DNA of 54,864 nt, counting the filler, from Sphacelaria rigidula (lineage: Eukaryota): the NCBI GenBank assembly GCA_964200075.2. It is 5 parts of 5 records of this genome, joined end to end, with 100 filler letters (N's around TTAATTAATTAA, not from the genome) between each part and the next. Parts side by side here need not be neighbours in the genome. Positions count along the whole stretch, not along the records: positions 43,974 to 54,864 come from CAXNAA020005724.1; 4 more parts are not named here. One strand, given 5' to 3'. The notes under the pieces are model-generated. The model was given only the letters and a program-made list of their open reading frames with translations, did no database searches and had not been told where the DNA came from. Below, piece after piece: positions 1-54,864 of this stretch. Numbering within the stretch: position 1 is the stretch's first letter; each line of letters opens with the position of its first letter. A program made the position numbers and the translations under genes.

Positions 1-136
1 GAACAACCGTTGCTGCTTTCAACGACGACCTGACTCAAAATTTCGTGCAACAAATGGCCCAAAATACCCCCCCTATCGTAGGATGACTCTTACACTTACC
101 AGTTAAAACTGGATAATTCGCAGCGGAGCCGCCTCG

Positions 137-11029: not shown

Positions 11030-11260
11030 GGCTACTCATGATCCTGCTTGCTGTAGTCATAAGATCGTTGGCCTCGCATTCCTACAAACTTGGGAGGGAG
11101 GACACCGGGTTTTTGCCGAACCAGGCTCGCAATCACCAAGCGCGAAGCGCCGTGATGTTTTCGGCGAGTCGCACGAGTGGTGACCTGCATGCTTGCTTAG
11201 ACTAATTATCGTGCAAATGGATGACAGCCTCCATTAAGCTGCTTCGTTTTCTGGTATCGC
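11030..11260 (-). mobile_element. Dispersed repeat family G (G/C-tract-associated retroposon-like), long copy
   Basis: tactcatgatc...caccaagcgcgaagcgccgtgatg...ggatgacagcctcca matches 28750-28990, 36060-36270 and revcomp 27780-27995; abuts G-rich tract 10995-11025; strand inferred. Confidence 0.75.
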
Positions 11261-12326
11261 GACTTTCAGAGACAGCCACGACTTACACCAAGTCGTGGGT
11301 GTTTCACCATTTATCAGGGGCGGGGGTCACTTCTTCTAGCGAACGTACGCTTCCAAGGTGCATAAAGTTACTCTTCGTCAACTGGTACAGCTTTCACTGA
11401 AAATCCCCCACCCCCAGGCGTTTGATTGATCCTTTTCATGAGAGGTCAGCCAAGGTGCACAGTGATTTCTGCTTTGCCCACGTTGTACAAGGATGTAATT
11501 CATGGACCAAAGGTGGCTGTGGAGTTGTGAGAAAAGCGGGAGAAGCCTGTTATGAAAGAAGGAGGAAAACATGAGTCGCAATGATCTTCACACTAGCCCA
11601 AACGATCAAAAATCGATCATACGAATGACGACATGGTAGCACACACGTGCCGTTTACAGGACACTTGGATGATTGAGAACCTGGTACACCTTCCCAAGTA
11701 GTTATTCATGCTTTCCATCATCGCGCTGGTGATTTGCGCCGTATGTAACTTGTGCTGTGTGTGTCTGAAGCTAAGCGTGACCGCGAGCTTGGCCGTGCTT
11801 GTAGATATCTGCAGAATAAATGGCAGCGTCCACCACCGTGTTCCCTTCATAGCCTTCGTAGCTACACGCATACCGATTCATACATGTCAGCTACTCGTCC
11901 ACCAGCAAGTGAAGAGTCAAATCTAGTTCACAATGAGCGCGGTACAGTGACTCACACCGCTGTTCCAGCAAAACGCAGTACTGCCAGCATCTACAACGAG
12001 CATGGGTACTCCTGCGCACGTCCCAGCACGCGGCTATTCTTCGGCAGCTAAACAGATACTGTATTCTAGTTTTCGCCGACTCGAGATACACCGCTAGCGT
12101 ATGTTCAATTCTCACATGGCTGTCTTGTTTCATTTGTGTAGCGGTCCTCATACTCTCGTTACACCATGGTTTGTCATGCACTCATTCTTTTAGTGCCAAG
12201 CATAGTTGGCATAAAACTAACCCCAATGGCATTGCTGTACAGTAGCCAAGCCCCCCCCGATCCCCCCCCCCCTCCCCGCCTTTCTCCACCTGAAAACGAA
12301 CACATCGAAACAAATAAATCAAACAG

Positions 12327-16488: not shown

Positions 16489-17253
16489 ATGGCGAGAGAA
16501 CCGGCACCGTTGCACAGGGCGACTGCAGTTGTCATGACACATCAAAGCAAGAGCCTACGGAGACGGCTCGCGGGGTGGGCAGGGATTGAGGACAGACCTC
16601 CCCTGGGGCAAGAGTCTTGGTGGTTTCCGGATGACCGAAGACCATCGGGGCACCTTCCAAGTCGAGGTTCGGAATCAGACGTTGGGTCGACCCTGAGTAG
16701 ATGCAATTCGGATTCGACGCACGGAGTAGGAGGTGGGGGCAATGGGGGAGAAGATTTCAATTCTAGCAGGCATGAGCATGGGCAGGAACAGCGGTCGTCG
16801 TTACGGGAGCACAGGCGGAGCCGGAAGCGAGATTGGTTCAAGGTGCTTCTCGCAGCTCGCAATCTGGCTACCGTTGTGTATGCGGTGAGTTATACGACGA
16901 GCCTGCCGGTTCTACCTTTTATGGTAAATCGCGTAATAAACCCGCAGGAGTCTACCGGGCCGGGAGACCCGGGGTCAGAGGGAGTGCGAGAAGCATGGAG
17001 GGGAATGGCGTACGGCCTTGTCATGTCGGGGTATCATCTCACAAAGATGATATCTGCGCCGTGGATTGGGTACTTGAGCGATCGGGTCGGGCGGCGGCAG
17101 GCGCTGGTTGCGACACTGTTGGGAGGAGCCTTGTCTTTTTTTGTGACAAAGATTTGGGGGCAGTTCAGCATACAAGGGCTGATTTTGTGCCGGCTATTGA
17201 TGGGATGCTTTGCGGCGAACGGTGCGCTCATGCACGCGTACATCAGAGATACG
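16489..17253 (+). CDS. MFS transporter (TetA/DHA1-like), N-terminal exon (TM1-TM4)
   Basis: LPVLPF in TM1, MFS motif A GYLSDRVGRR, RLLMG in TM4, ends AYIRDT at phase-0 donor ACG|gtgaga (17253/17254); start codon uncertain. Confidence 0.85.
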
Positions 17254-20200
17254 GTGAGAGCTAGCTCGTGTTTTATGTTGTAGCTTTCGTTTTTCTGTTT
17301 CTGTTGTTGCAGTAATGGTTTTTTTTGCCGGAACATGTTGTCATTTTGTGTGTGTTCCGCTCATTTTTTTAAACATCAAGCTTGATGTAGACGACGCCCA
17401 CGTGGGTGTGTGTTGTGTGTGCCTCTTGACCGCTGGTGCTGTTGATGATACTGCTGCAACAGCAAAGCGTGTTGCGCTGGGCCCCCTCCTAGTCGACAAG
17501 CAAGGCAGTGATGATACCCTACGGCATCGCCGTGTTTTAACCCACGCTGGTAGAATTTGCTGCGTGCTTGTTCGACACTTTCCCAACCCACTTGATTCGA
17601 TCCAGCGCTCAGCATTTGCTCTCCTACGGGAACAAACTGGTCGTAATACTTGATACTGCACTTTGCACCCTGCTGTATCAGAGGTGTCCATAGAACAATA
17701 GAGACGGGATACAGACAACAGTATTACGGTACACTATTGTAGCCGTAGTTTACTGTTGTCCTTGTGGCAAGCAAACAGCCAGGCTGCAGTACGAGAGAGA
17801 TTATTTGCAGATTTTCGTCTAGGCGCTTTCGAGAAGTACGGTGTCACCCCCCCCTTTTTTTCCGCCAACCTGGATCATGTGACGCATGGGGGGCGAGGTG
17901 TCGAAGGGATGGACCAATGAGGACACGTCGTTCCCTTTCCGAAAGATGCATAAACATCTCAAATCCGCTCCGCTGCAAGACCGCAGCAACGGTAGTAATT
18001 TGGCGGTTTCTTGTCCAAAGCTCTAAACGTACAAACACTACTGTATCATGAGAGTCCTTCCGTCACAGCACTACAGTAGTGTGATCTCCGGACGTGCAGC
18101 TGAGTCCCCACCTTTTACCTTACACCACCGCCTTGCTTCCTACACCACCTCTACACCTGAAGTCCTGACAAGTACCCGTCAGAGTTACCGTAATTAGCTA
18201 CAGTAGTGCAGCCTAGCCTATGTGTCGGTTGACTCTGTTCTCGTTTCTTCTCCAAGTTGCGTTTTCTCAATTTTTCTCGAGTTCCCTTCAAACTGAGTAT
18301 TTCCGCTTGCCTGTTGCTGCGGCAGGGGTACGAGTACTGAGATTCGAATTTGTTAAGAGCCTCTATCTCATCCAAGAAAAGGCTCATGAAATACGTGAGG
18401 GCACGCCACGATTACCATTCCAATGGGCTACGTCGGGATATCCCGAATTAATTTGAAAATGGGGATGTGCTGACTCGCGTTCATGTGTAGCTCCTAACTT
18501 CAAGAGCCCCTGAACGTGAAAAATCTAAAAATCTGAGCTCACAAATGTTCCAACCCTTACCGTAGCATGACTCGTTTACTTACCTTGCGCATGTCTGGCT
18601 AACGACCACGGCTGGATTCGTCTGGGGGTTAGTTTATTTACCACAATCAATCAATCGAGACGATGAATACGTACACATACCACGAGGCGGCACCGTAAAA
18701 TCATCGGCACTACTGCTACTTTTTTTTTTTTTTTTTCTTGAAGGAAGTAGAAAACCTGACCCAACACTTACCCCGCTTGAAAATAGACGGTTTCGCGGCA
18801 GTCCCTGTGTATTCGAATGGTCGTACAAATGTGTTGAGAACACGTGTCAACTTCGCGCAGTGCATGCTCCGCCCTACTCTCAAGAGCTTTGGTCCTTCAA
18901 AAGGTACTACAGTCAGTCGTGATCGACAAAACAAGAAGGGTTAAGGCTGCAGCGCGCCGTGCTTGCCGCCGTTAACCGTGCGCCATGATTCGTGAGCCGA
19001 GGCAGCACGTGAAATGATAGCCGCTGCGTAGATTTGTAAAGGGCGATTTCATGAAGTACGGGGATATCCCCCGCCATTTTCTTCTCCCGCCTCTTTTGCA
19101 CCCTGTGACGCGTCGGCAGGGGGGACGTGTGGGGGAGTCGTCGAAGGGATGATAGATCAATGAGTACACGTTATCCCGCTCCCGGAAGAACTTCTCCGAA
19201 ATACGCGAGGGGCCGCCAACACACCTTTTTCAGCGTTCTTTCTGTAAACAACTTTTGGGCGTTTTTTTTTTTGCGTCAGAGATGATGGTCACATTTCGTA
19301 AATCATTTTTGAATAGGGATTGATTGCCCCCACAACAACCGGTTTCGAGTCTTGCTGAGAACCAGTTTTGTCCAGATCGAAACCCAGATATGCACACCGG
19401 TTCAGAAATGCGGCGGTTCTGAAAGTGTTCGTTGATCCAACATCTCTGTACCGCTACAAACAATACGCAACAAGGCGACGCCAACCTACATACCGAGGCT
19501 CGTAAAAACACGCACGGACACCCACCACTCGCGCGCATTAGCTCTAAAAAGCGCTAGCTCTTGGTCACCTACAGACGGTAGTCTCTGCTTGACGTAAATC
19601 CGTCCAGTAGGAGATGAAAGATGACTGCGTGCGTGTCAAATTACAATCGAAAATGTGTCGCTGCTGAACGTATGTGTGCGTGTGCTGTTCGCGCGGTTTA
19701 GGCTTTTGCTAAAATTTTGCGCATAACCTCTTGTGTTTTTCTTTGAAACATATGTTTCTGGAGATTTCAGCATAACGAAGATGTGAGGGCTAAGTTTTAC
19801 GCATAACTTGGCGCATATAGCACTCCAACGAGATTATGCACCCCATGCCCAGTAGCTAGTACCTGCCCACGGGTTCTCCATGTGGCGTGGCTCGTCGAGT
19901 CATGGCGTTTGTGTCCGTAATTTGTTTTTTTGAAGTTTGTTGCGGGTCTCATACCGGTTATTATTGTGCTGTATGCAAACTACGTTATGTTCATGTGAAA
20001 CTGATGGAAAAACAAGTGTGTCGTATTTCACATCAGACGCACGCTTTTGCTTTTTTTGCGTTTTTTTTGTCCATGCTGGAGGGTACATTCCATGAGGGGT
20101 GCCGTCCGAAACCGCCTCAAGAAGAACGCGAAAAATGCGCCGAAGTAGCGCATATTTCACCAGAATATGCATAAATGACGCATATCTTTACCTTCGAGCA

Positions 20201-23371: not shown

Positions 23372-24238
23372 CGAGCTGGGCCAGCCTAAAAACGGATTTA
23401 AGCTCTAAAAAAAGCAATTTCTCTTCGACGCAGACGACTTGGGCCGTGATCCGCATATCGTATCAATCGTCTAATCAAGGGGAAGGTGCCCATCTGCTCA
23501 AAAGTTTGGGCCCATATTTTCTCGTCATTTATCCCCATGTCTAGTAATTCCTATACCTAAGGGAGATAGCGTCAATACCCTGCCAATACTAAAATCTCTA
23601 TGAAACTCCCGATCGATGCATTTAGCGAATGGCGATGAATTTTGGTGTGGAAAACCACAAAAGAGTGCCGATTAAAAAAAATAAAAAGCCTTCATTTTTT
23701 TTTTCAATAGAGGTTAGAGCGTTTTTGTGAAAAAATGGTCTTCACCATAGTAGAACGCCTTAAACCAGTCAAAAAAATTGAAAAAAATCAACCTGGCCCA
23801 TTCTTTCTTGTTGAATATGCCTTAGAGAGCGCCCATACCAAATTTCATTACACGAAAACCAAACGTGGGCCGGTGAGTGGCCTGTGAAATACTATTTCGA
23901 ATTTCTACCGATCCGGCTTTTGATAGGCCCATGCTCTTTTATACATTTAGAGTTGGACCCTGAAATTTGGTATGAACAGTGCATATGGCATGAAAAAAAG
24001 AATACTGAAGTACCAAAAGTGTTTTTTTTTCTCCATGAGTTAAGGGCAATAAGCGGTTTTCAGGTATCAGTAGAATGCCCCTAACCCATGAAAAAAAATA
24101 AAAACACTTTGGGTACTTCAGTAATTTTTTTTTTATGCCCTATGCACTGTCCGTGCCAAATTTCAGGGTCCAACTCTAAATGTATAAAAGAGCATGGGCC
24201 TGCAAACTTCAAATCCACCTCTAGGCTGGCCCAGCTCG
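23372..24238. mobile_element. Tc1/mariner-type non-autonomous element (867 bp)
   Basis: Perfect 17-bp TIR cgagctgggccagccta / taggctggcccagctcg with TA on both sides; no transposase ORF. Confidence 0.85.
23925..24201. repeat. ~117-bp inverted repeat inside the mariner-type element
   Basis: 23925-24042 vs 24082-24201; opposite-strand ORFs share GPCSFIHLELDPEIW. Confidence 0.9.
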
Positions 24239-24671: not shown

Positions 24672-27203
24672 TCATCGTCTTCGAATGACTTGATAGCAGG
24701 GCTGTAAATTACCACCACATTCGGGGCCACACGGCCAGTCTCCATTCCCTTCGGAAGCAAGAGCCTGCGTGAATTGTGCATCGAACGCCTTGATGATCGA
24801 GTTGTAGGTTATGACGTCTGGGGTGACACCCTCCATCTTCATCTCGCTCAACAGTGATACCGTCATGTCACACAGTCCAGCGAAGCTGCATGCCGCGATG
24901 ACCGAGTTGTACGTGACTACATTCGGGGCGATACCTTCGACCTTCATCTCCCCCAGAAGGGAGCAGGCCTTCTGCTTTTGTCCGCCGTTCCCGCATGCCG
25001 TGATGGCCGCGTTGTAGGATATCACATCTGGGGAGATACCCTCGCTTTTCATCTCTCTCAAGAGCGACAGAGCCTGCCCCCATTGTCCGCCGTTCCCGCA
25101 TGCCGTGATGGCCGCGTTGTAGGATATCACATCTGGGGAGATACCCTCGCTTTTCATCTCTCTCAAGAGCGACAGAGCCTGCCCCCATTGTCCGCCGTTC
25201 CCGCATGCCGTGATGGCCGCGTTGTAGGATATCACATCTGGGGAGATACCCTCGCTTTTTATCTCTCTCAAGAGCGACAGAGCCTGCCCCCATTGTCTGC
25301 CGCTCCCGCATGCCATGATGGCCGCGTTGTAGGATATCACATCTGGGGAGATACCCTCGTTTTTCATCTCTCTCAAGAGCGACAGAGCCTGCCTCCATTG
25401 TCCGCCGTTCCCGCATGCCGTGATGGCCGCGTTGTAGATTCTGACGTCGAGGCTCATACCCTGATCCTGCACCTCCTGCAGAAGCGACAAAGCCTGCTCC
25501 CATTGTCCACCGCATGCCTGTATAGCCAAGGTGTAGGTTGCGACATCAGGGGTGATACCTTCCCCTTGCATCTTCTGGAGAAGTAACAGAGCCTGCTCGA
25601 GCTGTCTACCGTTGCTGCATGCCGCGATGGCCTTGTTATAAGTTACTATACTAGGGGCGATACCCTTGGTCTTCATCTCCTGCAAAATCGACAAAGCCTG
25701 CCCCCACTGTCCACCGTCCCCGCATGCCGTGATAGCCGTGGTGTAGGTAATGGCGTCAGGCATAATCCGCTCCCTCTGCATGTTCCTCAAGAGCAACAGA
25801 GCCTGTTCCCAGTTGCCACCGTCCCCACATGCCTTGATGGCCGCGGTGTACACTATGACATCAAGGGCGATACCTTCGGTCTTCATCTCCTGCAAAATCG
25901 ACAAAGCCACTTTCCATCGTCCACCGCATGCCGTGATGGCCGAGCTGTAGCTCATGATACTCGGGGCGATGCCCTCGCTCTTCATTTCCCTGAAGAGTAA
26001 CAACGCCTGCTTGAACTGTCCAGCATCCCCGCATGCCTTGATGGCCGAGTTGTACGTCACGACATTATTGAGGGGCTTCATCTCTTGAAAAAGGAGCAAA
26101 GCCTCCTGCCAGTTTCCGCCGTCCCCGCATGCCTTGATGACCGCGTTGTAGCTTATGACGTTAGGGGCGATACCCACAGTCTTCATCTCCCGCAGAAGTG
26201 ACACCGCCAGCTCCCATTGTCCCCCGCATGCCACGATGACCGAGGTATAGGTGATGACATCCGGGGTGATTCCCTCACTCTTCATCTCCCTGAATAGTGC
26301 CATAGCCTGGTCGAGCTGTCCACCGTACCCGCATACGTTGATAGCCGAATTGTATGTGATCTTATTCGGTGCGACATCTTCAGCCTTCATGTCTCTCAAG
26401 AGGGACAAAGCCTCTGTCCATTGGCCCTTGCATGCCTTGATGGCCAAGTTGTAGGTTATCACACCGGGATCGACACCCTCCGCTTTCATCTGCTTGAAGA
26501 GCAGCAACGCCTGCCCGAGCTGTCCGCCGTCGCCGCAAGCTTTGATGGCCGAGCCGTAGCATCTATCATTCGGACGCAGTCCTCCCACCTCCCGCATGTG
26601 CTTCAGCAGGGCCACAGCTTCCTTCCAACTGCCGGATTTGGCAGCAACCACGTGTAGGGTAACACCGTACATTCTTTCATTCACGACTAACCGCGAGTCA
26701 TCGCGAGCCAGAGCTTCCGCCAAGATCGCTCTTACCGTGTTCCAATCTCGCCGAAACCCCGACCGCTTTATTCGATCCAAGTAGGCGTCCTGGATAGCTC
26801 GGAAGCTGCCAGATGGCCACTGGCCATTTCCCCGACCACCGCCTCCTTCGCGCCGGCCTTGTCCATAACCGCCCCGACCTCGATCGCCTCCCGAACCATC
26901 GCCAAATGACCGTCGTCCGTTTTCCCTGCCGCTCCCTCGCGGCCCGTCTTGCCAGATACGATCTTCCTCCCGACTGCTCCCACGTCCTCCCACCACGCCT
27001 GCCTGGGATAACCTACAGCCAACAGATGGTCTATCTGTATGGCTATTCGTGGAGAATATGCCTGCTCGCGACGGCCGGACGCCGACAGCATTCTTCGGTG
27101 CATTCCATGAAGGCGCGACCATAACCCAGGGGTTAGCGGCGACGATAACGCTACCGATAACCATGGTATTCAGCATGCACCTTCTTTTTTTCAGGCGTAA
27201 CAT
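24672..27203 (-). CDS. P-type pentatricopeptide-repeat (PPR) protein, ~18-19 motifs, single exon, probably organelle-targeted
   Basis: Uninterrupted ORF (open to 27311; start placed at ATG 27203) with motifs like VISYNAAITACGNGGQWGQALSLLREMKSEGISPD; N-terminal hydrophobic then R/G-rich segment. Confidence 0.93.
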   Translation of the reverse strand: MLRLKKRRCMLNTMVIGSVIVAANPWVMVAPSWNAPKNAVGVRPSRAGIFSTNSHTDRPSVGCRLSQAGVVGGRGSSREEDRIWQDGPRGSGRENGRRSFGDGSGGDRGRGGYGQGRREGGGGRGNGQWPSGSFRAIQDAYLDRIKRSGFRRDWNTVRAILAEALARDDSRLVVNERMYGVTLHVVAAKSGSWKEAVALLKHMREVGGLRPNDRCYGSAIKACGDGGQLGQALLLFKQMKAEGVDPGVITYNLAIKACKGQWTEALSLLRDMKAEDVAPNKITYNSAINVCGYGGQLDQAMALFREMKSEGITPDVITYTSVIVACGGQWELAVSLLREMKTVGIAPNVISYNAVIKACGDGGNWQEALLLFQEMKPLNNVVTYNSAIKACGDAGQFKQALLLFREMKSEGIAPSIMSYSSAITACGGRWKVALSILQEMKTEGIALDVIVYTAAIKACGDGGNWEQALLLLRNMQRERIMPDAITYTTAITACGDGGQWGQALSILQEMKTKGIAPSIVTYNKAIAACSNGRQLEQALLLLQKMQGEGITPDVATYTLAIQACGGQWEQALSLLQEVQDQGMSLDVRIYNAAITACGNGGQWRQALSLLREMKNEGISPDVISYNAAIMACGSGRQWGQALSLLREIKSEGISPDVISYNAAITACGNGGQWGQALSLLREMKSEGISPDVISYNAAITACGNGGQWGQALSLLREMKSEGISPDVISYNAAITACGNGGQKQKACSLLGEMKVEGIAPNVVTYNSVIAACSFAGLCDMTVSLLSEMKMEGVTPDVITYNSIIKAFDAQFTQALASEGNGDWPCGPECGGNLQPCYQVIRRR
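24979..25438. repeat. Near-identical 105-bp tandem repeats (~4.4 copies) in the PPR CDS
   Basis: Unit restarts at ~24979, 25084, 25189, 25294, 25399 with few differences even at synonymous sites. Confidence 0.95.
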
Positions 27204-27691
27204 GGAAAAACCGGCGAGAGCATGACAGGAGAGGGACAGGAGAGGGTACGGAATTGTGTGAGGAAGGCGGATAGCGGAGAGATCGCAACGTACCACAAGG
27301 AAGTACTGCACGTAATATACTGCTCTTGAGTAGTCGCCAGATTTTCAACGCGCGTACCGACACATTCCTTGCGATTTACGGTATTCGCCAAAACGCTGCA
27401 TCTCTCCTTCTGAAGAAATCAGAAACTAGCTCTTCTGAGTGCCCATTGAACTTGCCATACAGCATACTCCCCCCGCCATTTACAAGGCAATATAGAGCAC
27501 GCAAAAGAACCAACCGCCTTGACGTGGGACAAGGACTTGACGTGGATTAGGCCCTACCTGCCGGAGGAATGGTGATGAAATCAGATTTCCACCGTCGTAA
27601 GTGGAGACACGATCGTATGGCCTCTTCTTTTCGTGCTCCCGAGATTGAGATAATGCGCGTTTTTTGCCTTGATTCCTGGCTACCCCCTCCC

Positions 27692-27756
27692 CATGGTGAA
27701 ACACCCATGAGGCAATGTGACTCGTGGCTCTATCTGGAAGTGGCAACGCCAGAAAT
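27692..27756 (+). mobile_element. Short dispersed repeat, probable A-tailed retroposon 3' end
   Basis: atggtgaaacacccatgaggcaatgt...ggaagtggcaacgccagaaa; also 32853-32881 and revcomp 39549-39625 (with A9 tail). Confidence 0.6.
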
Positions 27757-27779
27757 ATGAAGCAAATCAGTCGAGGCCG

Positions 27780-27995
27780 TCATCCACATGCAAGACAACC
27801 AGTAGGCTTCGTGCCGAAAAATCTTAGCAGGATGCAGGTCACGCTTTATGCGACTCGCCGAACACATCACGGCACTTCGCGCTCGGTGATTGATTGCGAG
27901 CCTGGTCCGGTGGAAACCCCGCGCGCTCCGTCCCTGCTTTGTAGGGTCGCGAGATCAAAGGTCTTGTGACTACGGCATGCAATATCAAAATACAC
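27780..27995 (+). mobile_element. Family G, long copy
   Basis: Reverse complement of the 36060-36270 / 28750-28990 sequence. Confidence 0.7.
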
Positions 27996-28749: not shown

Positions 28750-28990
28750 GGGGTACTCATGATCTTGCATGCCGTAGTCATGAGACCATTGACCTCGCAT
28801 CCCTACACAGCCGGGACGGAGCCCGCCGAGTTTTCGCCGGACTAGGCTCGAAATCGATCACCAAGCGCGAAGCGCCGTGATGTATTCGGCGAGTCATATG
28901 AAGGGTGAGCTACATCCTGCGAAGAGTTTGAGGCCCCAAGCGTACTGATTCATCTTGCACATTTGGATGACAACCTCCAAAGAGTTGCTT
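28750..28990 (-). mobile_element. Family G, long copy
   Basis: gggtactcatgatcttgcatgccgtagtcatgagaccattgacctcgcatccc...; preceded by G-rich tract; may extend toward 29300. Confidence 0.75.
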
Positions 28991-29420
28991 CACGGGCAGC
29001 GACCGGGGAGCGAATTCCGACAACACGCATCCCTTGGGGAATTCCGACAGCTACACCCTTGTCAGGACTTCTGCTTCAAAGACCTCCATTTCGGGGAAGG
29101 GTACGGGTTCTTGGCCGACGGTGTGCAGCAAACGGATGTACCACTGATGCAGAAAGTACCTGAGCTGGGTGTGGCGTATGCCCACCATTGCGAAGCACTG
29201 TACTGCATTGCCGTGCAACCCATCCGGAACATGGGTACATTTCTGCCTGGGAAATTCATCTGGGACCTCAACCTCATCCGGGATTCTTGATCGATTCAAG
29301 CGTCTTTTTTTTCTCATATTTTTTCCCTTCAATCTTCTTGTTTTTCCTTCAAAGAAGGAGGAAGCCTCACTCGACGCTTACCCAGCGAACAGGCTCGGCT
29401 AGACAATTATGGGTCCCTCT

Positions 29421-29680
29421 GTTGTTGTTGTTGTTGTTTTTGTTGTTGTTGTGTCTTCACATTAAAAACCGTTTCGATATCTGCGGACCACTCTGTACTG
29501 GGCATCTGATGAGGACGCCTTCCGTGGTCACAGACTTGACTCCCCCAAGCTAGGGTGACATAAAATAATCAAATAAAGTCGGGCCCAGAAAAATTCACAC
29601 AGACGCGATACAGACGAAATAAAAAAACCAGAGAAAAAAAAAACTCCAAAGGAAGAAAGAACGACGGCCATTGGACCTGG
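29421..29680 (-). mobile_element. RTE-type LINE/SINE 3' end with (CAA)n tail
   Basis: (gtt)n-gtcttcacattaaaa...catctgatg.ggacgccttccgtggtcacag matches LINE 3' end 36272-36370 and 46927-47140. Confidence 0.75.
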
Positions 29681-34535: not shown

Positions 34536-36059
34536 CTTTTGTGCGATGAAGTGGGTTTGGGACGTGCAAACCTCCTAGCTACCTGCGTTTTGCGCGCAAG
34601 CGTCTTTTTCGGGTAAATTTCACGTCAAAAAGATAGTAACTGCATCAGATTCTGGGCTTGTGCAAGGAAACTATGCACAACTGTTTTCTTGTACTACCTC
34701 GGGACGCAAATTTCTATTTTTCGTTTGGAGGCATCCCGTACAGACTTTCGGGGGTCTTCACACCGGAACCCCCAAAACCCGGCAGTAAAAGAGCGGAGAA
34801 ACACATTTTTTTTCGACAGCACATCTTCCCCAATTCGATCACTAATACTTACCGAGCTGGTGAGTTTGAGGGCGGCTGGGCCTCTTGTGGAACATATATA
34901 GGGGTCACTGTCAGAAGGCTTTCTGTGTCTTTGGTCCATGGTCGAAATCCGACGGCGCCAAAACCCCACATCACCTAAATGCCACGGTTGGGGGAAATAA
35001 ATCAACGACATAGTAATCGTTTCCATATTTTTCCGTTAGATCTCCGAGCTGATGAAGGTCACTACGTCATGAGGCCTAGAAAGATTGCGTAGAAATTGGG
35101 TTGGGAGTTCGCGTTTTCATTTTCAGAAAATGTGAAGCCCCCTAATTCGTCGAGGTATAATTTCGCCCTTAGTGTGCCACCTCTATAGTCTTCAATAAAA
35201 CTCCGGCTAAGTCACGATGGTCAGCATGATACCATATATGCGACAGTTGGGTAGAAATTGCGGGAGGTATTTGCCGAGGACACAATGTTCGGTGATAAGC
35301 GTCAGCCAGATCGCACTGCTGATGTGAGAAGCATCCAAAAATATTACCCCCCCCCCCCCTTCTCCTCTTGCTGAGCTTGCTGGGAGGACGCCTCCAGTAA
35401 AACCAAGCTGCTGTTTATTCAGCGCTTAGCAGTACATTCATCACGAGACGCGATCAGGGAATCGCCGAAACAATGATTTACTTCGAACGGAATTGCTCTG
35501 CAATCCAGTGGAATAGACAGCAAAGTTGCATATTTTGCGCGGACACGGTAATGGGTACGACTGCAGCTCGATCCAATCAAGGAGAGTGGTTAAAACGGCG
35601 TATGTGACCGACACTGAGCGACATCTCGGTAGGATGACCACGATTTACTACGTCAAAACATATCTTCCCTTACCACCGCGCTCTACAGGTCCACCTTGCC
35701 AAGACATGATGACTATTCCGACACTTGACAAAACTTTGCCCCGGGGTTCGATTCCTCCCATGATCGTTCTTGGCCAATATCTTGATCATGAAGTAGCATA
35801 GAAAAGCACACTGGGCCAGGGAAAACGCGGTAGGCCAGAATAAGCACAAAAGACCCTACATAGCAGCATAATCAAATACAGGGATGAAAATCCTGTGGCG
35901 AAACTGGACTTCGATATATCGGCTCAACAGCTTGGACGGACACCGGGATTGAGTTCTGTAAAGGTGTCACAGTAACCACTGAGTCACTCAGTCAGCTCAA
36001 CAGATTGGACGGACACCTTAACACGCCTGGTACAAGAGCAGCCCCGGTTGGGACGGGGG

Positions 36060-36270
36060 GTAGTCATGATCATGCATGCCATAGTCATATGACCACTGAC
36101 CTCGCATCCCTCCAAAGCCGGGACGGAGCACGCCGGGTTTTCGCCGGACTAGGCTCGCACTCAATCACCAAGCGCGGAGCCCGTGGTATGTTCGGCGAGT
36201 CGCATGAAAGGTGAGCTGCATCCTGCTAAGATTTTTCAGCCCGAAGCCCATTGATTATCTTGCACTTGTA
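36060..36270 (-). mobile_element. Family G, long copy, abutting the RTE LINE tail
   Basis: Follows gggggg at 36055-36060; homologous to 28750-28960. Confidence 0.75.
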
Positions 36271-36271
36271 T

Positions 36272-39200
36272 GTTGTTGTTGTCTTCACATTAAAACCCTT
36301 CCGATATCTGCGCGGGACATTCGTACTGGACATCTGATGCGGACGCCTTCCGCGGTCACAGGCTAGCTACCCATAATAAGGTATGAGGAAATCAAACGAA
36401 ACAAAAAAAGCAAAATAGATCTAGGTGAAAACTCACAAAACGCGATACAAGCAAAAACAGGAAAAATATAATAAAAAGAAGAAAGACAATACATATGGCT
36501 AACCTCAGAAGATCCGGTGCCGCAGGTGGCCATTCGGACTTCAGGGGGTGGCACCCAGCTTTCCAACACGACGCGCCAGGCCAAGTTGAAATGAACATAG
36601 GGTCCGACTACGGGCGAGACTCAAGGCCCCAAATACCACCAACCAAAGAACTAAGAATCGCAAGGTTCCATTTTCCGGCCTCTCGAGGGACAGCCATACG
36701 TACAAGCATACTAGGTGTATCAAGACAAGCACTGCATGACATAACGACACCCCTCATCGGGGGGTTCACTCCCCACCCCCCCTTTTTGTGGACCGTCGTC
36801 AATGCTGTTCTACGTGGGCTTCGTCGGTCTCCCGCCGAATCGCACGCAGTCGGCTGGCCTCCTCTTTATTTCTGTGCCATGAGGTCATGAACCTCTCCGC
36901 TCCCTGCAGCACTCCCGCGTGCCACGGCAACCCCCCCTCCTTATTCGCTGCTGAGGTCCATAGGGTGCGGTCAATTCCGAATGTCTGGCGGTTGTCGTCC
37001 GTAGAGCCATCTGTGGCTCCGAAAGCTTGGAGATCGTCCCTCAGGCACTTCAGCCAGTTTTGCCTCGGGCACCCTGGTCCTGGATCCTTCTCCCGACGAG
37101 TGTTCCGAATAATATTCGCCTCGGTAATCGTCCGTCCGGTTGTCTAGCCAGGGCTCCCACGAACAGCAGTCGTCGTTGCCGGACGATGACTTCGGGACGT
37201 TGGCACCCGGCCTTCTTGAGGGTCTGTGCATACAACAACTGTCGGTATGTGCCGCGCACTCGGCGGTACCCAATGACTCGTAGGAGGAGCCGGTAGTGCA
37301 CCTTTCGAAGAAAATCGTAGTGTTCGCGGCGCGGGGCCCACGTCATGCATCCGTATAGTAGGGCCTCCATCGCCTCCGCTTTAAGCAGTCGAACCTTGGG
37401 TCTCCGTGGTGCTTTCGGTCGGTCAAAGAGCTCCCGGGAGAACTTCCTCATGCACGCCCACGCTGCTCTGCTTCGATTGTTGATTTCTCGCTTGAGTTCG
37501 CCCTCTTCGTTGACTTTTCTGGGCGTATTTCTGGCCCGATGCTTCGATGATCAGCGGTGGGAGAGATGGTGTTGGTGACTCCCCCTTCTTCGGTGCTTGC
37601 CTCGGCACTCGCATGAAGAGACTCTCTGTCTTGTTCTCCGATACGGTCAGTCCAAAGGCCCTAAATCCATTCACTATGATGGTCATCAAATTCGCTAGTC
37701 CGTCGGGGGATCTCGAGATGACGACGGCATCGTCGGCATACAGCATTCCCCACACCGCTCTGCGTACACGTTCCAGCGGTGTCTCCGCTGTAATACGTGA
37801 GAGGACCGCGTGCTTAGAGGACCGCATCGGAATTTGAACATCCCTATGGTTAGCGTTAGGGTTAGCGTTGGAGTCAGGGTTAGGGGCGTGGTACCTGCAG
37901 GGACTGGCCCGATTGGTTTTGAAAAACATCGATCCTGAGGTATTTTTCACTACGGCGTGGTCCTCTAAGCACGCGATCCTCTCACGCATTACATCTGCCC
38001 CCCTCCCCGTCTCCTCATCGAGATATACCATGTCCTTGATGATGATATCATCCTTGCTGAATCGCACCAGGACTATCTCGAGCACTGCCGCGAAGAAGAT
38101 GTTGAACAACAGGGGAGACAGTACACATTCTTGCCGCAGTCCCTGTGTGCCTTCAAACCACTCCGAGAGCTCTCCGTCGTCCATGCGTACGCGGGTCTGC
38201 TTACCGTCGTGGAGTTGGCAGATAACTGCTAACATCTCATCCGGAATACCAGCTCGGGCCAGCACCTGCCACAGAAGCTCTTGGTCGACCGAGTCATATG
38301 CCTTCTCGAGGTCGAAGAAGTACATGTACAGCGGTATTCTCCGCCGCCGCCTCAGCTCCTAGAGTCCGCGCACTACGAACAACGTGTCGACGGTGGATCG
38401 GTCAGGTCGGAAGCTGCATTGTTCCTCCGGTAATACCCCGTGCGTTTTGCAGTAGTCGCTGAGGCGGTTGGCCACTATCTTCAGGAGCACTTTCCCTCCG
38501 TGCGATACCAGATATATCCCCCTGTAGTTATTGCAGTTGGACCGGTCTGATTTCCTGTACAGCCCCTTGATGGTTGCATATTTCCGCTCCTGCGGGACCT
38601 CCCCTCCGTCCCACGCCTCGACGAGAATGGTGTGGAAGCGTTCGATGACGGCGGGCTCGGCGCGGTCGTCGATCTTGAGTAGCTCCACAGGAAGAGAGTC
38701 GCGTCCTGGCACTTTCCAGTTGTGCATGCCCCGGACTGCTCGTCTGGTTTCCTCCAGTGTTGGTGCTGCCCCGAGCGGTGCTGAATCCCCGGTGGTTGAC
38801 GCTGCCGGTCGCTGCTTCATCTCCTCGATGATGGCTGGGTTCAGCGTGGGCGATTTGGCGTTGAGCAGGGTGCGGGAGAATCTTGCCCACCGTTTAATTT
38901 AAGGATGGTAATTATGCTTCTCAGTAAGACGCCATTCTCGTTCTTTATGAACTGCTGCCCCGTAAATTGCCTTCCACCAAGACCCACCGATCTTTTGAGG
39001 TGTTTGTACAGGCCTCTCATGTCGCGGTTCTTGTAGATCGCTTCTAGCCTCGCGGCTCTGAGTGCTTTCCACGATGCTGAGGTTCGGTGATGCTTCATCA
39101 CTTGGCGTGCCTCCCGTCGTTTGGCGAGCGCTGCCCTCACTGTTGCTCTCGTGCCGGTGTTTTCACACCGTTCCGGCATACGTGGTATCCATGCCTCTTT

Positions 39201-39540
39201 CGGAAGTACTGTCTGCGCTGCTTCGAGGATAGCTTCGGTAAATTTCTTCGCGGCCGCCGGTGCGGTGGTGATTGGTTGGTATTTTTGCTCGGCGAGGTTA
39301 TGTAGGAATCTCTCGGTCATGTGCCACCTTGTCATTTCGGTCTGTAGCTGCTGTCGACTGAATTGCCGCTGCTTCGACTTGGTGCGTACTTGGCGGTTGT
39401 GGGCAATGCGGCCACCGTGGTCGACAGTGGCCACAACCATGCTGTGGTCCGAGTCCGCTATAGCCGGGAGTGCGGGTTGGGGGTGTACGACTACGTTGCG
39501 CACTTTACCTCGGTGTACCTGCCGGATAAGCAGCCTACAA
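36272..39540 (-). mobile_element. Decayed, 5'-truncated RTE-clade non-LTR retrotransposon (end of APE endonuclease + reverse transcriptase)
   Basis: DSDHSMVVATV (APE end), [94 protein letters not shown] across frameshifted ORFs; (CAA)n 3' tail. Confidence 0.93.
37789..37993. mobile_element. 205-bp MITE (TGT...ACA, ~35-bp TIR, 5-bp TSD) with telomere-like core, inside the RT
   Basis: tgtaatacgtgagaggaccgcgtgcttagaggacc / ggtcctctaagcacgcgatcctctcacgcattaca; flanks tccgc / tctgc; core ggttagcgttagggttagcgttggagtcagggttagggg. Confidence 0.9.
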
Positions 39541-39548
39541 TGAGTTGC

Positions 39549-39720
39549 TTTTTTTTTCTGGTATCGCCACTTCCACAGACAGCCATGAGTTATACACTGC
39601 CTCATGGGTGTCTCGCCATCTAACACTACGCAGGCGGGAAATGTACTCATGATCATGCATGCCATAGTCAAATGACCACTGATCTCACACCCCTACAAAG
39701 CCGGGACGGTAGCACGCCGT
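39549..39720 (-). mobile_element. A-tailed short repeat (39549-39625) plus short family G copy (39642-39720)
   Basis: Homology to 27692-27756 and 28750-28825 respectively. Confidence 0.6.
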
Positions 39721-46926: not shown

Positions 46927-47140
46927 TGTTGTTGTTGTTGTTGTCTTGACATTGAAAAACGTTCCAACTTCTGCGCAGTACTCTCCGTACTGAGCATTTG
47001 AAGCGAACGACTTCCGTGGTCACAGGCTAACTACCCCAAGCTATGGTAAAAATAAAATAATAAAATGAAGTCGGACCCAGAAACAAATCACACAGACGCG
47101 ATACCAGTGAAAAAAATGCGTGAAAACAAGGAAAGAAAGC
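46927..47140 (-). mobile_element. RTE-type 3' end with (CAA)n tail
   Basis: Matches 29440-29660 incl. tcacacagacgcgatac. Confidence 0.7.
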
Positions 47141-48057: not shown

Positions 48058-49362
48058 CAGCTCCCTATAGCTCGAGCTAGCTCTTTTTGAGTGTAGCGCC
48101 CTAGTGAGCTATGAGAGCTACATGAGCTACGCATACTTTCCGGTGAGCTATGGGAGCTGTATGCGCTACGCATGTTTGCCCTGGATGAGCTATCAACCGG
48201 TAGCTCATCAGCTCATATTTGCCCTGGGTGAGTTATGAGAGCTGCATGAGCTACGCATGTTTACCCCGGATGAGCTATGAGAGATGCATGAGCTACACAT
48301 GTTTGCCATCGATGAGCTATGAGAGATGCATGAGCTACACATGTTTGCCATCGATGAGCTGTGGGAGATGCATGAGCTACAAATGTTTGCCCTAGATGAC
48401 CTTTGAGAGCTAGGTGAGCTGTGAATCATTGCACGGGATGAGCTGTGAGAGCTATGATAGCTACGATTGCTCATCCCTTCGACCACGAGGGTAAGAGGTC
48501 TCTGAATCGGCATCATTCACACCCGAAAAATAAAGTGAAGTATTCTGATTCATCAAATCGCCAACCCTCGCGGTCAAAGGGCTAACCCCTTGACGGCGAG
48601 CATAAGTCATTTGTTGAATCGGCTCCAATTTCACTTGGAAAATGAATGCATCGCCAGATGGACTCGTACCCTCGCGGCCAACCGATCAAAATATATTTAT
48701 TCATCGGTCGATTATTGTAGACACTGAGCATCAATACTTTTTACAACCATCCGACCAAGCGAGCGAGGACATGTGTTGGCTTCTTTTCTTCCTACCGCGA
48801 AAAGTGAGGCAGAACATCACAACCTTATGACATTTGGTGCCATCCGTTCGAGCAAGAATGTTACATCATAAGCGACACGGGGTTGGCCAGCGGCTAGCTA
48901 GGTATATGACGTGAGAGAGCCGCGACCATGTGTTCCTGGGGTGAGCTACCGGGCGTAGCTCATCCGTTCATGTTTTCCCCGGGTGAGCTACAAGAGCTGC
49001 GTGAGCTACACATGTTTGCCTTAGGTAAGCTATCGAGCGTAGCTCATCCGCATGTGTTTCCCCTGGATGAGCTATGGGAGCTGTATGAGCTACGTACGTT
49101 TGCGATGGGTGAGCGACCAGCCCGTAGCTCATCAGCTCAGCTTCGTCTTGGGTGACCTATGAGAGCTGCATGAACTATGCATGTTCGCCCCGGGTGAGCT
49201 ACCAACCGGTAGCTCATCAGCTCATATTCGCCCTGGGTGAGCTACCAACTCGTAGCTCATCAGCGCACGTTTACCTTGTGTTGAGCTATCGGACGTAGCT
49301 CACATGTACATGTTTGACTACAGGTGAGCTACCACCCGCAGATGAGCTAGCTCATGAGCTGT
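48058..49362. repeat. GAGCT(A)-rich minisatellite (42-bp unit), split by an unrelated insert at ~48475-48890
   Basis: gatgagctatgagagatgcatgagctacacatgtttgccatc at 48269, 48311, 48353; degenerate units on both sides of the insert. Confidence 0.8.
48475..48581. mobile_element. 107-bp piggyBac-like mini-element
   Basis: TIR cccttcgaccacgagggt / accctcgcggtcaaaggg; flanks tcat / ctaa fit TTAA only imperfectly. Confidence 0.5.
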
Positions 49363-50776: not shown

Positions 50777-51099
50777 GCATACCGGAAACACCGAAACAGA
50801 GAGTAGAGAACAGACAGACGCACAAGATATATACATGCCTACTATTTTTTCGAAACATCGATATAATACAGTTATCAACCATCATGCCCCGCGAAACCAT
50901 CCTTCGTACAATCGACGATTCTGCTGTGGGAGACGAAACATGCTAACAATGAGAAATATCAGTATACGGAACCCATGTTGTCACGCACCGGACATGACAC
51001 CAGGTCAACTTCGGCGCCTGACATACACCCCATCTATATTGAAACAACGCCTGAATGAACATGACTCTTCATGTTGGCGTGAGTTCACGCCCCCTCACA

Positions 51100-51165
51100 T
51101 GCTTCGTCTCGAAAGGGATGCGTGGTCATTGGTCACACGACTGAGGCAAGCAACAAATGAGTACG
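51100..51165 (+). mobile_element. Family G 66-bp mini-element
   Basis: tgcttcgtctcgaaagggatgcgtgg...aaatgagtacg; flanks ccccctcaca / cccccctctcg (degenerate TSD). Confidence 0.75.
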
Positions 51166-52149
51166 CCCCCCTCTCGTCGAGACCCCCCGCGAGGGGTTCC
51201 TCCTTGCGCGATCTCTCGAAAGACCAAAGCAGAAACAAGAACAAAAGCGGTGCTACATCACCCGAAGAGATTTTCCTTCATAGAAGGAAAACTGCAGTGC
51301 AGTCTTGCTCGTTTTGCCCTGCAAGTTTCAGTTTTTCTTCTTCTCCACGGCTTTTTCGTGCAGCTACAGTACCGATTCGACGTTAACCCTCGGACAGCGG
51401 GAGTAGGCCACCTGTTGAATCGGCATCAATTTCACTTGCAAAAAGTATGCATGGTTAAGATGGATTACGTTCGCGGTCTAAGGGTCGACGTGCAATGCGA
51501 AAACACCAAATGATTCTTACGCCAACCGTTGTCGAAAAAAAAGGTGGATTCGAAACAAGGAAATAATCGAAGAAAGCCGAAGACAAAACGAACTCAGCGA
51601 CAAGGACTCCCACGGTGGATAAAAACAAATTGGTATCAGTGTGCACCGTCATATTCGGATCTTCACAGGGTTTCAGAGTTCACGATCCCAAACGCTCGCC
51701 TCGCGTGCGCAGCACGTGGGTTTGCTCAAATCGGTCGCCACAGACACCGACTTGAGCTGTGAACGCACACCTGGCCTAGGAAATCGCATGAACCGAGTAC
51801 CCAGACGAGAGAAAACATGAGCTCATGACTGAGAATCATATACTGCACACAAATATAAACATATACCTTGAAATGAAATGGTGATTTCTCGACAGACACT
51901 CCTGGAAAGTTTTCTTTTTCATGGTATTCACCTTAGCTGTCCCTCTAGAGCTACAAGATTAGAACCCTGCGACTCTCGAGTTTGGCTCTCCCTTCCTGTT
52001 TGGCCTCGCGTGTTGGGTGGAATAATGGGTCCTGCCTTTAGTAGCCCGAATGGTCGCATCTGACATCGGAAGTGAGACGGCTAGCAGTAGTCCTTTGTCA
52101 TTCCCTTTTTCTCCCTTTTTTTTCTAGTATTTTTTTTTTGTTTTCTCTC

Positions 52150-52325
52150 ATCTCTCTTGTATCGCGTCTATGTGAATTGTTTTCGGGTCCGATTCTTGTA
52201 TGATTTGCCTTCACCCTAGGGTGGAGCAGTTGGCCTGTGACCACGGAAGGCGTCCGCAGCAGATGCCCAGTGCAGGGTACTACGCAGTATCTGAACGGTT
52301 TTTGACGTGAAGACAACAACAACAA
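52150..52325 (+). mobile_element. RTE-type 3' end with (CAA)n tail
   Basis: cctgtgaccacggaaggcgtccgcagcagatgcccagt...gtgaagacaacaacaacaa. Confidence 0.7.
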
Positions 52326-52355
52326 ATCCACATTGCCCCCCCTTCCCCCCCCCCG

Positions 52356-52421
52356 TGCTCCGTCTCGAAAGGGATGCGTGGTCAATGGTCAAACGACCAA
52401 GGCAAGCAACAAATCAGTACG
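52356..52421 (+). mobile_element. Family G 66-bp mini-element
   Basis: tgctccgtctcgaaagggatgcg...aaatcagtacg; flanks C10G / C11G. Confidence 0.8.
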
Positions 52422-54704
52422 CCCCCCCCCCCGCGCATATTCTGACGATAAGAGATTTGGAGACATGGCCTTTGGCGGCAACTAGCGGTGAGGGTATTTT
52501 GTGAACCTTGCTTTGCATATCGTCCGCGTGTTGGAGTGCCACGCCAACAGTATCCACACTACGGCATTCCCGCGACTGCACCAATTCACGTTTCGCCACA
52601 GTATTTTCCACCCCACCAGTTTTCTGATTCCCCACCAATTTCACAACTTCTTGTTGCCCGCTTGACGTCGCGAGACCTTTATTTTCCGTCGCATTGATGA
52701 GGTCGCCTCCTGTGGCAAACAAGATTCGAAATCTAAAAAACTGCCTTTCTAGTCCTTCTGCGTCATTTGACGCCTTACAAGAGGGCTATGGGGGTTTTGA
52801 CTCCCTGGAACGCCTTGCTGTCCTCGTTGGGACGGTTGCAGGACACCTTCGCATTTTCCAGTGGTCGCAGTTTCTTTTTACACTCTTGCTTCTTCTCAGA
52901 GACCATTTTCCGAGAAAAATGCAAGTTTGGCCGAAAACAAAAACGGGAAGACACCCAGGTGTGCTGGAACCGTCCCAACGAGTCCAGCAGGGTATTATTC
53001 CGGGGTGTCAAAACCCCCCCAGTCCTCCTTTAGGGCGTGAAACGACGCAAAAAGTCCAAAAAGACAGGTACAGATTCTGTTTCCAATGTTTACCGGAAGA
53101 AGCGGCCTGAGAGCTGGGAGATTGTTTTATGGGCTCTCTGTTTATGAAGCGTACAGAGTCATCTCATGGCGTCGCAATTGTGGAAAGGTGATTGTTTTCG
53201 ACACACACTCGTAAGTTTTTTGTCGTATCATGTGACAGCATCCATATGTGTGTATGTTTATATATCAGTGTTGCGCCAAAGGAAAAACAAAATCGGGACA
53301 TAATCTGATCACTTTTCCCTTTAGTGCGCACTCCTGCAGCGCACAATACCATATATAGCGACGTGGAACTGTCGACTGTGGTTCGCACAACATAATAGCG
53401 AAGTTTCAGTGCCTCGCAGCGGCTACAGCGCGCGTAGGGCCGTGCGTCATGACCTGCGCAGCTCTACAGACTGTGTGCCTATCGGTACGCTACAGATGCT
53501 CATGGTCCAGAGAGGGTTGCATTATAGACCGGTGTCGGTTTTTCACCCCATCGGCCGCCCAGCCGCGCTAAATGTCCAGGTTTGTGCATCTGCGCGTGAA
53601 CATATGTAGTCACCTATAGTGCGCCAAGTCTGGGCACCTGCATGGCCAATTTGAGAGCGCATGCACGGCATTCCCCACAATCGGTTGGGGCCATGTTGTA
53701 CGGTGTTCCTAACCCCAATCGCGCGGATGCTTTGGACATATGCTACCTGTGTTGTGCCCAACTAGTGTGCAAAGTTTTATGATGGAACACGCAGTCACAG
53801 GCGAGAAATCCACAACCCAAGCTGCACTGAGAAATGGTGGTTTGCCGTAGGGAAGTACTGTACTCAAATAAACATGGCCTACGGTTAGGCCCTGATTACG
53901 CCGCATGTCTTATGCGGTTACGTAGTATTTTGGTACGGGTACCGCCTGTAGACCGTACATTGCATCAGCGTATTATACTGCACTTCATATAGTGGTCATG
54001 ACGGAGTTTTCAAATTTCGAACCCATCAGCTGCGCCGCCAAACATGCATGCAAACAAGTGTGCCATTCTCCAGTGCGACAAAAGCAATTGAGATGCTTCT
54101 TTTTCAAGCGGATTGTACCCTCCATATACTACGCCCTGGGCGCGGTGGTGCGCTGGATAACCACGCGTGGTCGCCACGTATCGTCGTACAGTGGGGCCCG
54201 CAAGGCACCCGTGCCAAGCAACAGCACGCACACCGACAAACGCGGGATATGATCACGTTCTCAGCCTACAACTTGGGCCGACGATCCAGCCTTAAAGATA
54301 GCTTTGCAAGGTATGCCGTATGTTGGGTCGGAGGTCGTCCCTCTAGGGCACGTCGCTCGTGTGAACTACACCTACTTCGCGAATGATCCAAGTTGGTAAT
54401 TTATACAATGATTCTTGTATGCGAGAATCGGCGTACATTTGATTCTTGTTTTTTGGCGCAACACTGATATCAAGTCTTGTGTTTTTGTTCTCATGTTTTC
54501 AGGTCGCCTTTTATGGCGAACAAAATGGACAAGATTTCTATTTCGTCACTTTTTGTCCGGAATTCTTGTCTGGCCACTTCATATTTTGAAAAGAAAAGCT
54601 TACAAAACCACTGTCAAATTTTACTTCTGAGAGGACGAGAAATTGAAGATCCCAGACAAACATTCACATATATATATATATATGAGTCATCCTACGATAG
54701 GGGG

Positions 54705-54770
54705 CATACTCATTTCTTGCTTGCCTTAGTCATTTGACCATTGACCACGCATCCCTTTCGAGACGGAGCA
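54705..54770 (-). mobile_element. Family G 66-bp mini-element with perfect 14-bp TSD
   Basis: cctacgataggggg at 54691-54704 and 54771-54784 flanks catactcatttcttgc...cgagacggagca. Confidence 0.85.
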
Positions 54771-54864
54771 CCTACGATAGGGGGGGGGGGAAATTGGTTG
54801 CACGAAAAACCAGGTTCCTAAGCCTGTCCGACACCCCTCCACCCCTACGTCCACCTGGTGCTTG

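What the first reader, a model, noticed from the sequence alone, without database searches (positions are those of the whole stretch)
51090..54790. 66-bp mobile element with 10-14-bp TSDs starting in a C/G homopolymer
Seen: three copies with the same two ends (51100-51165, 52356-52421, inverted 54705-54770), no TIRs, no A-tail and no Pol III boxes. TSDs: cctacgataggggg (perfect), C10G/C11G, ccccctcaca/cccccctctcg. The C-run always adjoins the ...agta(c/t)g end. An empty target-like site (cccccctatcgtagg) occurs at 68-82. Established: variable 10-15-bp TSDs indicate target-primed reverse transcription. Inference: an unusually small retroposon primed at G-tracts, perhaps via an oligo-C RNA end.
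Basis: partly seen in the sequence, partly recalled or inferred. Interest (0 to 1): 0.75.

Follow-up and report, generated by a model that had tools for sequence, protein, structure and literature searches.

The report
Tail-end fragments of an algal LINE
The 66-base repeat is the extreme tail of a known kind of brown-algal jumping gene that inserts at runs of C, and the one unexplained point is that most recent copies are cut off at almost exactly the same spot.

Summary
The three copies are real, but they are not a stand-alone element. The unit is the last 19 codons, stop codon and 5-nt 3' UTR of a single-ORF endonuclease-RT LINE. It matches the C-terminus of intact 1328-1360-aa proteins at 17-18 of 19 residues for copies 2 and 3, and long RT-bearing copies in this genome end in it. 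A (C)n tail, C-rich TSDs and a ~600-bp partner sharing the 3' end at 83% are already listed for Ectocarpus RTEX-1/2 and RTEX-N1 (PMC12477816 supplement); the same pairing occurs here (53/64). The 'empty site' is a MITE terminal repeat. Not found in print: a sharp 5' truncation hotspot. 44 of 81 sampled copies end 60-70 nt from the 3' end, about 15 times the background rate. These copies are younger than long ones, and in one young lineage only 33 of 543 perfect copies extend ten bases further. The boundary lies at the base of a predicted stem that closes the unit. The partner family shows no hotspot (0 of 14). Most likely a recent burst in trans from short or trimmed RNA; this step is inferred.

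The parts
51100..51165 (+). Copy 1: last 19 codons, stop codon (51158-51160) and 5-nt UTR of the LINE ORF
   Evidence: 14 of 19 residues match the end of P0003
51090..51099 (+). Left C-rich flank of copy 1 (weak TSD, 7 bases shared)
51166..51176 (+). C-run and right flank of copy 1
52356..52421 (+). Copy 2 (stop codon mutated to TCA)
   Evidence: 18 of 19 residues match
52345..52355 (+). Left TSD of copy 2 (C10G)
52422..52433 (+). Right TSD or C-tail of copy 2 (C11G)
54705..54770 (-). Copy 3 (T-variant lineage), inserted in a MITE terminal repeat
   Evidence: 18 of 19 residues match
54691..54704 (-). TSD at the 3' side of copy 3 (C5 plus 9 bases), part of the MITE terminal repeat that begins near 54684
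54771..54790 (-). TSD at the 5' side of copy 3 (14 bp, within a C11 run)
67..89 (+). Uninterrupted MITE-like terminal repeat, a paralogous empty site for copy 3
27693..27995 (+). Non-autonomous partner family B (RTEX-N1-like), sharing the 3' ~70 nt
28753..28992 (-). Family B copy
36059..36272 (-). Family B copy
39640..39715 (-). Family B copy, short
11034..11325 (-). Family B copy, diverged

Best explanation
The unit is the 3' terminus of a brown-algal RTEX-type LINE with one ORF (APE endonuclease, RT, C-terminal CCHC motif). Shown, about 0.95: its identity, the C-run at the 3' end, C-started TSDs, and a non-autonomous partner family that shares the same end. From established LINE biology: the ORF protein nicks the G-rich strand of a C/G run, the C-rich RNA end anneals there and primes reverse transcription, and a second nick 7-20 bp away gives the TSD. 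The shared ~66-70 nt is the RNA element that the protein recognises (stringent 3' recognition; inferred from its sharing with family B). Shown: most young copies stop at -60 to -70. Inferred, about 0.5 among the explanations for the hotspot: these copies come from a recent burst in trans from a few non-coding source loci. Their RNA is short or is trimmed 5'-to-3' down to the protein-bound, folded 3' domain, whose predicted closing stem begins at G(-67), so the RT runs off the template end there.
For: Unit translation against the last 19 aa of intact proteins P0003/4/5: 17-18 of 19 for copies 2 and 3, 13-14 for copy 1. Of 20 stretches picked for upstream LINE similarity, 14 show the unit or its start at the expected place; the other 6 gave no match there. 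RVT_1 and Exo_endo_phos domains lie upstream in such copies, and the L107 frame runs into the unit across one stop. Family B shares 53 of 64 aligned bases and reaches about 570 nt, as listed for RTEX-N1 in PMC12477816. Hotspot: stops per base at risk are 16/3008 at 22-59, 44/543 at 60-70, 9/858 at 71-120 and 8/1458 at 121-294. Genome-wide, 2342 copies are perfect from -66 and 457 also hold 7 more LINE bases. Youth: 1.0 mismatch per 39 nt in 44 short copies against 3.9 in 10 copies over 150 nt, p=6e-5. The T-variant is in 17 of 44 short copies against 23 of 171 long ones, p=4e-4. In that lineage 33 of 543 reach -76. Of 30 examined, 26 end by about -130, at about 5% per base, and the 4 longer ones are more diverged. 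The 67-nt RNA plus tail folds with a closing stem from -67 at p=0.97. Extra junction bases of 1-7 nt occur in 12 of 28 TSD copies.
Against: Family B has the same potential closing stem but 0 of 14 copies that reach it stop there, so the stem alone is not enough. In 130-nt context the stem's 5' strand prefers an upstream partner (p=0.85-0.88). The unit's fold is not better than shuffles (z -0.3 to -1.4 on the sense strand), and no two-sided compensatory change was seen by eye between A and B. Young long copies may be collapsed in this fragmented assembly: 12 of 93 copies were cut by an edge or gap and 7 more edge hits were not fetched, which could inflate the age contrast. Copies of 71-150 nt are not significantly older than short ones (p=0.07). 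Counting the 4 long T copies lowers the stop rate to 2% per base. No RNA end was observed. RTEX membership rests on matching features, not on a sequence comparison.
Confidence: 0.8

Rival explanations
1. Hotspot by RT stalling on full-length LINE RNA. A hairpin formed only in the LINE context (bases -79 to -74 pairing with -66 to -61) stops the RT or folds the cDNA back, so all short copies are ordinary truncations of autonomous RNA.
For: The hairpin is predicted at p=0.85-0.88 in 130-nt context. Ends spread over -60 to -68, which is its 3' arm. Family B lacks the 5' arm and lacks the hotspot.
Against: It is a 6-bp hairpin, and the RT crosses the first 60 nt with 0.5% loss per base. Old long copies carry the same hairpin, yet among copies with 3 or more mismatches there are 3 short and 12 long. 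The stop rate stays high beyond it in the young lineage.
Confidence: 0.25
2. An independent 66/67-nt mini-SINE: one truncated copy landed behind an external promoter and is transcribed from G(-67) or T(-66).
For: Sharp boundary, young age, enrichment of one variant, and extra junction bases as expected from RT run-off.
Against: Both C and T variants are common among short copies (27 and 17 of 44), so at least two sources are needed. Young T-lineage copies with shared private changes extend to -120/-130 with their own TSDs, so the source RNA holds more than 66 nt. No exact Pol III box.
Confidence: 0.15
3. Site-specific cleavage at -67, by an RNase P-like enzyme reading the closing stem and C-rich overhang as a tRNA acceptor arm, or by self-cleavage.
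For: The boundary coincides with the first base of a 6-bp closing stem followed by a C-rich overhang.
Against: No Rfam family at these coordinates at E up to 5 and no tRNA call. No cut in family B. Ends are spread over about 9 bases.
Confidence: 0.07
4. The boundary is an assembly or sampling artefact.
For: Fragmented assembly (27214 contigs); 3 of 8 edge-cut copies break at exactly -66; the sample comes from the longest contigs.
Against: Short copies carry locus-specific TSDs (28 of 74 against 1.2% in controls). Whole-genome counts agree. Contigs of 4 of 4 public runs from two studies list loose 5' ends at the same base (one run may be the source sample).
Confidence: 0.03

Closest known systems
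RTEX-1_Ec32 / RTEX-2_Ec32 (Ectocarpus RTE-X LINEs; PMC12477816, supplementary table MOESM3)
   Same: Single EN-RT ORF, (C)n 3' end, C-rich TSD, thousands of mostly truncated copies, brown alga. The closest named relatives of the RT are Ectocarpus sp. CCAP 1310/34 proteins at up to 51-59% identity.
   Different: No fixed 66-bp truncation class is mentioned in the parts read. The consensus FASTA files could not be read, so family identity was not tested by sequence.
RTEX-N1_Ec32 and RTEX-N2_Ec32 (non-autonomous, 607/604 and 188 bp)
   Same: Listed as sharing a 60-bp 3' end with the LINE at 83%. Family B here shares 53 of 64 bases (83%) and reaches about 570 nt.
   Different: These have their own 5' heads. 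The 66-bp unit has none; it is pure LINE coding sequence.
Stringent-type LINE/SINE pairs with a shared structured 3' tail (review PMC3747384, passages)
   Same: A short 3' sequence shared by LINE and partner, predicted to fold.
   Different: There the element lies in a 3' UTR and LINEs are described as truncated at various positions (100-1000 bp). Here it overlaps the last 19 codons, the UTR is 5 nt, and truncation piles up at one place.
Tailless retropseudogenes (mentioned in PMC3747384, passage)
   Same: Very short retroposed RNA fragments with preferred ends.
   Different: Those derive from tRNA or SINE RNA and lack tails. These derive from the LINE's own end and have C-runs.

Membership tests
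Non-LTR retrotransposon (LINE) 3' fragment | Continuous with an upstream RT-encoding ORF | tested here: met
Non-LTR retrotransposon (LINE) 3' fragment | Fixed 3' end, variable 5' truncation, variable-length TSD | tested here: met
   exact TSD in 28 of 74 short copies, 7-20 bp
RTEX-1/2_Ec32-type RTE-X LINE | Single ORF with APE endonuclease and RT | tested here: met
   P0003 and P0005 carry PF03372 and PF00078 in 1360 and 1328 aa; both domains found in broken copies of this genome; no intact ORF among 20 stretches
RTEX-1/2_Ec32-type RTE-X LINE | (C)n 3' end and C-rich TSD | tested here: met
RTEX-1/2_Ec32-type RTE-X LINE | Non-autonomous partner sharing about 60 bp of 3' end at about 83% | tested here: met
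RTEX-1/2_Ec32-type RTE-X LINE | RT groups with the RTEX clade, or sequence identity to the Ec32 consensus | not testable with these tools
   consensus FASTA files unreadable; no Repbase here. The RT is only 33% identical to the window's other LINE
SINE (Pol III type) | Internal A and B boxes or a tRNA/5S/7SL-derived head | tested here: not met
   no exact box; one-mismatch hits only; no tRNA or Rfam hit
SINE (Pol III type) | Own transcript with a defined 5' end | not testable with these tools
   only contigs were available, which cannot show RNA ends
MITE / DNA transposon | Terminal inverted repeats and fixed-length TSD | tested here: not met
Self-cleaving ribozyme retroelement (hammerhead, HDV-like) | Match to a ribozyme model; conserved catalytic core | tested here: not met
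   no Rfam hit at the copies; the GAAA loop is replaced in family B

The most novel reading that the evidence does not exclude
The LINE's own 66/67-nt recognition domain has become a promoter-less mini-retroposon. It is trimmed out of longer RNAs (dead LINE fragments or host introns that hold earlier copies) down to the base of its closing stem, refolds into the closed form once the competing upstream strand is gone, and is copied in trans. Short copies then seed more short copies, giving a recent burst of thousands of insertions near the lower size limit for retroposons.
Probability: 0.3. Interest if true: 0.7.

Novelty: new variant of a known kind. Interest (0 to 1): 0.42.

Why it matters
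As a family it is ordinary: RTEX LINEs with C-tails are annotated in Ectocarpus. The hotspot matters for two reasons. It marks, from genomic copies alone, the minimal RNA element that this LINE's protein needs, and that element overlaps the last codons of the protein. It also gives a clean natural case for asking whether LINE 5' truncation comes from RNA decay or from RT failure. If short copies propagate themselves, they would show a route from LINE fragment to SINE-like element without gaining a promoter. Length filters in repeat annotation would miss copies this short.

Tried and rejected
Rfam scan of the whole window at E up to 5: 11 weak hits, none on the copies. ARAGORN: no gene. Hammerhead or HDV-like reading: rejected as above. 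G-quadruplex block upstream of -66: none in the minimum-energy fold of 4 long copies with quadruplexes allowed. Splice-acceptor origin: the LINE reads GG before the boundary in most long copies; AG occurs before 11 of 55 short copies, several of them inside the TSD; not pursued. One single 66-nt master: disfavoured. 5' transduction from short donors: extra junction bases differ between copies and several repeat the unit's own first bases. RNA evidence: no RNA holder listed; the four runs laid were contigs only. A search for a more distant RTEX family in this genome returned 150 matches at 35-46% identity; the 20 fetched were all the same family, so no deeper covariation test was possible. The metagenome scan gave 2 loci, both long copies, too few to test the hotspot elsewhere. 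Two of my own results were corrected. The apparent piles at -100 and -113/-118 came from a reference copy that was itself truncated (redone). An early 0 of 30 for the T-variant in long copies became 23 of 171 genome-wide. Earlier findings of the scan: nothing returned.

Full report
Observation. The window is five contigs joined by N spacers. The three copies lie at the stated coordinates and are 59-61 of 66 identical. Copy 3 has a perfect 14-bp TSD, copy 2 has C10G/C11G, and copy 1 shares only 7 flank bases. There are no terminal inverted repeats, no A-tail and no exact Pol III box. Rfam and ARAGORN give nothing on the copies. A 21-base pattern from the 3' end has 3557 exact hits in the 244-Mb genome and its reversed control has 0.

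The 'empty site'. The 19-mer at 71-89 has 1565 exact hits, often as inverted pairs 230-350 bp apart. The 20 loci fetched show it as the end of a repeat, preceded by a C-run. It is a MITE-like terminal repeat. Copy 3 sits inside one, as do several other copies of the unit and of family B, so 68-82 is a paralogous empty site.

Identity. Many copies share sequence upstream of the unit. That sequence reads as the end of an ORF with a CCHC-like motif and runs in frame into the unit, which supplies 19 codons, a stop and 5 further bases. I fetched 20 stretches chosen for similarity 870-1560 bp upstream; 14 show the unit or its start at the expected place, followed by C-rich sequence where the contig continues. 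Pieces of these copies hit RVT_1 and Exo_endo_phos. A protein search with one RT piece returned 13 proteins. The best, P0003 and P0005, are intact 1360- and 1328-aa APE-RT proteins, and their last 19 residues match copies 2 and 3 at 17-18 positions. The named relatives are Ectocarpus proteins, so the host is taken to be a brown alga (inference). Two metagenome loci show the same end with an open frame.

What is known. From PMC12477816 I saw passages, section 5 part 1, part 1 of 3 of supplementary table MOESM3 and rows of others. It lists RTEX-1 and RTEX-2 of Ectocarpus as single EN-RT ORFs with (C)n 3' ends and C-rich TSDs, and RTEX-N1 (about 600 bp) as sharing a 60-bp 3' end at 83%. Here a second family, B, has 2909 exact 3' hits, reaches about 570 nt and shares 53 of 64 aligned bases with the unit. 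The consensus FASTA files and one large table could not be read; they may already show the short class, and the family label is by features only. PMC4421812 (passages) reports a young RTEX-1 in Saccharina. PMC3747384 (passages) describes stringent recognition of shared structured 3' ends and truncation at various positions.

Target and tail. In 93 copies ascertained only by the 3' 21-mer (93 of the first 100 listed; 7 contig-edge hits not fetched), 87 have C next and 76 have at least 7 C in 10. Among 74 short copies (44 from that sample and 30 from 40 further loci), 28 have an exact C-started TSD of 7-20 bp, against 1.2% of mismatched pairs. In 13 of 28 the TSD starts right at the 3' end and in 15 extra C-rich bases precede it. 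This fits nicking in a G-run and priming on a C-rich RNA end, by analogy with A-tail/T-run priming in L1 (established for L1, inferred here).

The hotspot. Of the 93 copies, 4 have an N gap and 8 reach a contig edge. Of the 81 left, 16 end before -60, 44 end at -60 to -70 (22 at -66/-67) and 21 go further. Stops per base at risk are 0.0053, 0.081, 0.0105 and 0.0055 for 22-59, 60-70, 71-120 and 121-294. Whole-genome counts agree: 457 of 2342 copies perfect from -66 hold 7 more LINE bases. In contigs of 4 public runs from two studies, the listed loose 5' ends include the same base in all 4 (59, 59, 398 and 59 records; 1159 further rows not shown; one run may be the source sample). Family B has no such pile-up: 14 of 30 copies reach the equivalent base and all 14 continue.

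Age and source. Short copies average 1.0 mismatch in 39 nt, copies of 71-150 nt 3.0 (p=0.07) and copies over 150 nt 3.9 (p=6e-5). A T-variant at unit position 39 is in 17 of 44 short copies and 23 of 171 long ones. In that lineage 33 of 543 perfect copies reach -76. Of 30 examined, 26 end by about -130 (one at a contig edge), at about 5% per base; the 4 longer ones differ at 4-7 of 34 upstream bases, where the 6 young ones long enough to compare differ at 0-2. The longest young copies share private changes and belong to a subfamily with a 21-nt duplication. So the recent source holds at least 130 nt of LINE sequence but yields almost only short products. Caveat: young full-length copies may be collapsed in this assembly.

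Mechanism of the hotspot. The 67-nt RNA with its tail folds as a three-way junction closed by a 6-bp stem from -67 (p=0.97), while in 130-nt context that strand pairs upstream instead. The fold is not stronger than shuffles, so this is a prediction only. My odds: trimmed or short source RNA copied in trans 0.5, RT stalling at the LINE-specific hairpin 0.25, a dedicated 67-nt transcript 0.15, site-specific cleavage 0.07, artefact 0.03. The absence of a hotspot in family B counts against trimming unless B's own folded or modified 5' part protects it. The age contrast counts against stalling.

Novelty. The family, C-tail and C-rich target are known kinds. I did not find the fixed short class in print: two searches on truncation hotspots returned 0 papers, and searches returned nothing on it by title or abstract. 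The library lacks most subscription papers and Repbase Reports. Verdict: 3' end of an RTEX-type LINE, with an unexplained and testable truncation hotspot; interest 0.42.

Noticed in passing
window 52228-52326 (+); also 29440-29533 (-), 36290-36368 (-), near 46989-47050: 3' ends of another LINE-like family ending in (CAA)n, like RTE-1/2_Ec32 in PMC12477816. Copy 2 lies just downstream of one.
   Followed up: no
window 37050-39692 (-): Broken LINE with RT pieces (RVT_1), only 33% identical to the RTEX RT over 107 aa; probably the (CAA)n family.
   Followed up: partly
window 820-10894: Long tandem array of about 154/164-bp units filling most of the first contig.
   Followed up: no
window 1-89 and 54684-54864: MITE-like family with C/G-run terminal repeats, 1565 exact 19-mer hits; its C-runs are frequent targets of the LINE and of family B.
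   Followed up: partly
window 24672-27344 (-): 890-aa open frame with about 35-aa repeats, by eye a pentatricopeptide-repeat protein; not scanned.
   Followed up: no
window 12318-13979 and 16456-17283 (+): Exons that look like a major-facilitator transporter by eye; not scanned.
   Followed up: no
window 48104-49190: Array of about 42-bp tandem units in two blocks.
   Followed up: no
window 52741-53067, 14433-14864, 23925-24201: Inverted-repeat pairs of 70-148 bp, probably further MITEs.
   Followed up: no
L005, L006, L013, L061, L107, L114, L130, L186: Copies of the unit and of family B insert into each other's C-tails and form mixed clusters.
   Followed up: partly
L027, L065, L108, L208, L280: A LINE subfamily with an in-frame 21-nt duplication about 130 nt from the 3' end; the young T-lineage derives from it.
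   Followed up: partly
P0006, P0007, P0012 C-termini: Similarity among distant family proteins rises again in the last 16-20 residues, starting at the codon where the 66-bp unit begins, which hints that the RNA element is old (by eye).
   Followed up: no
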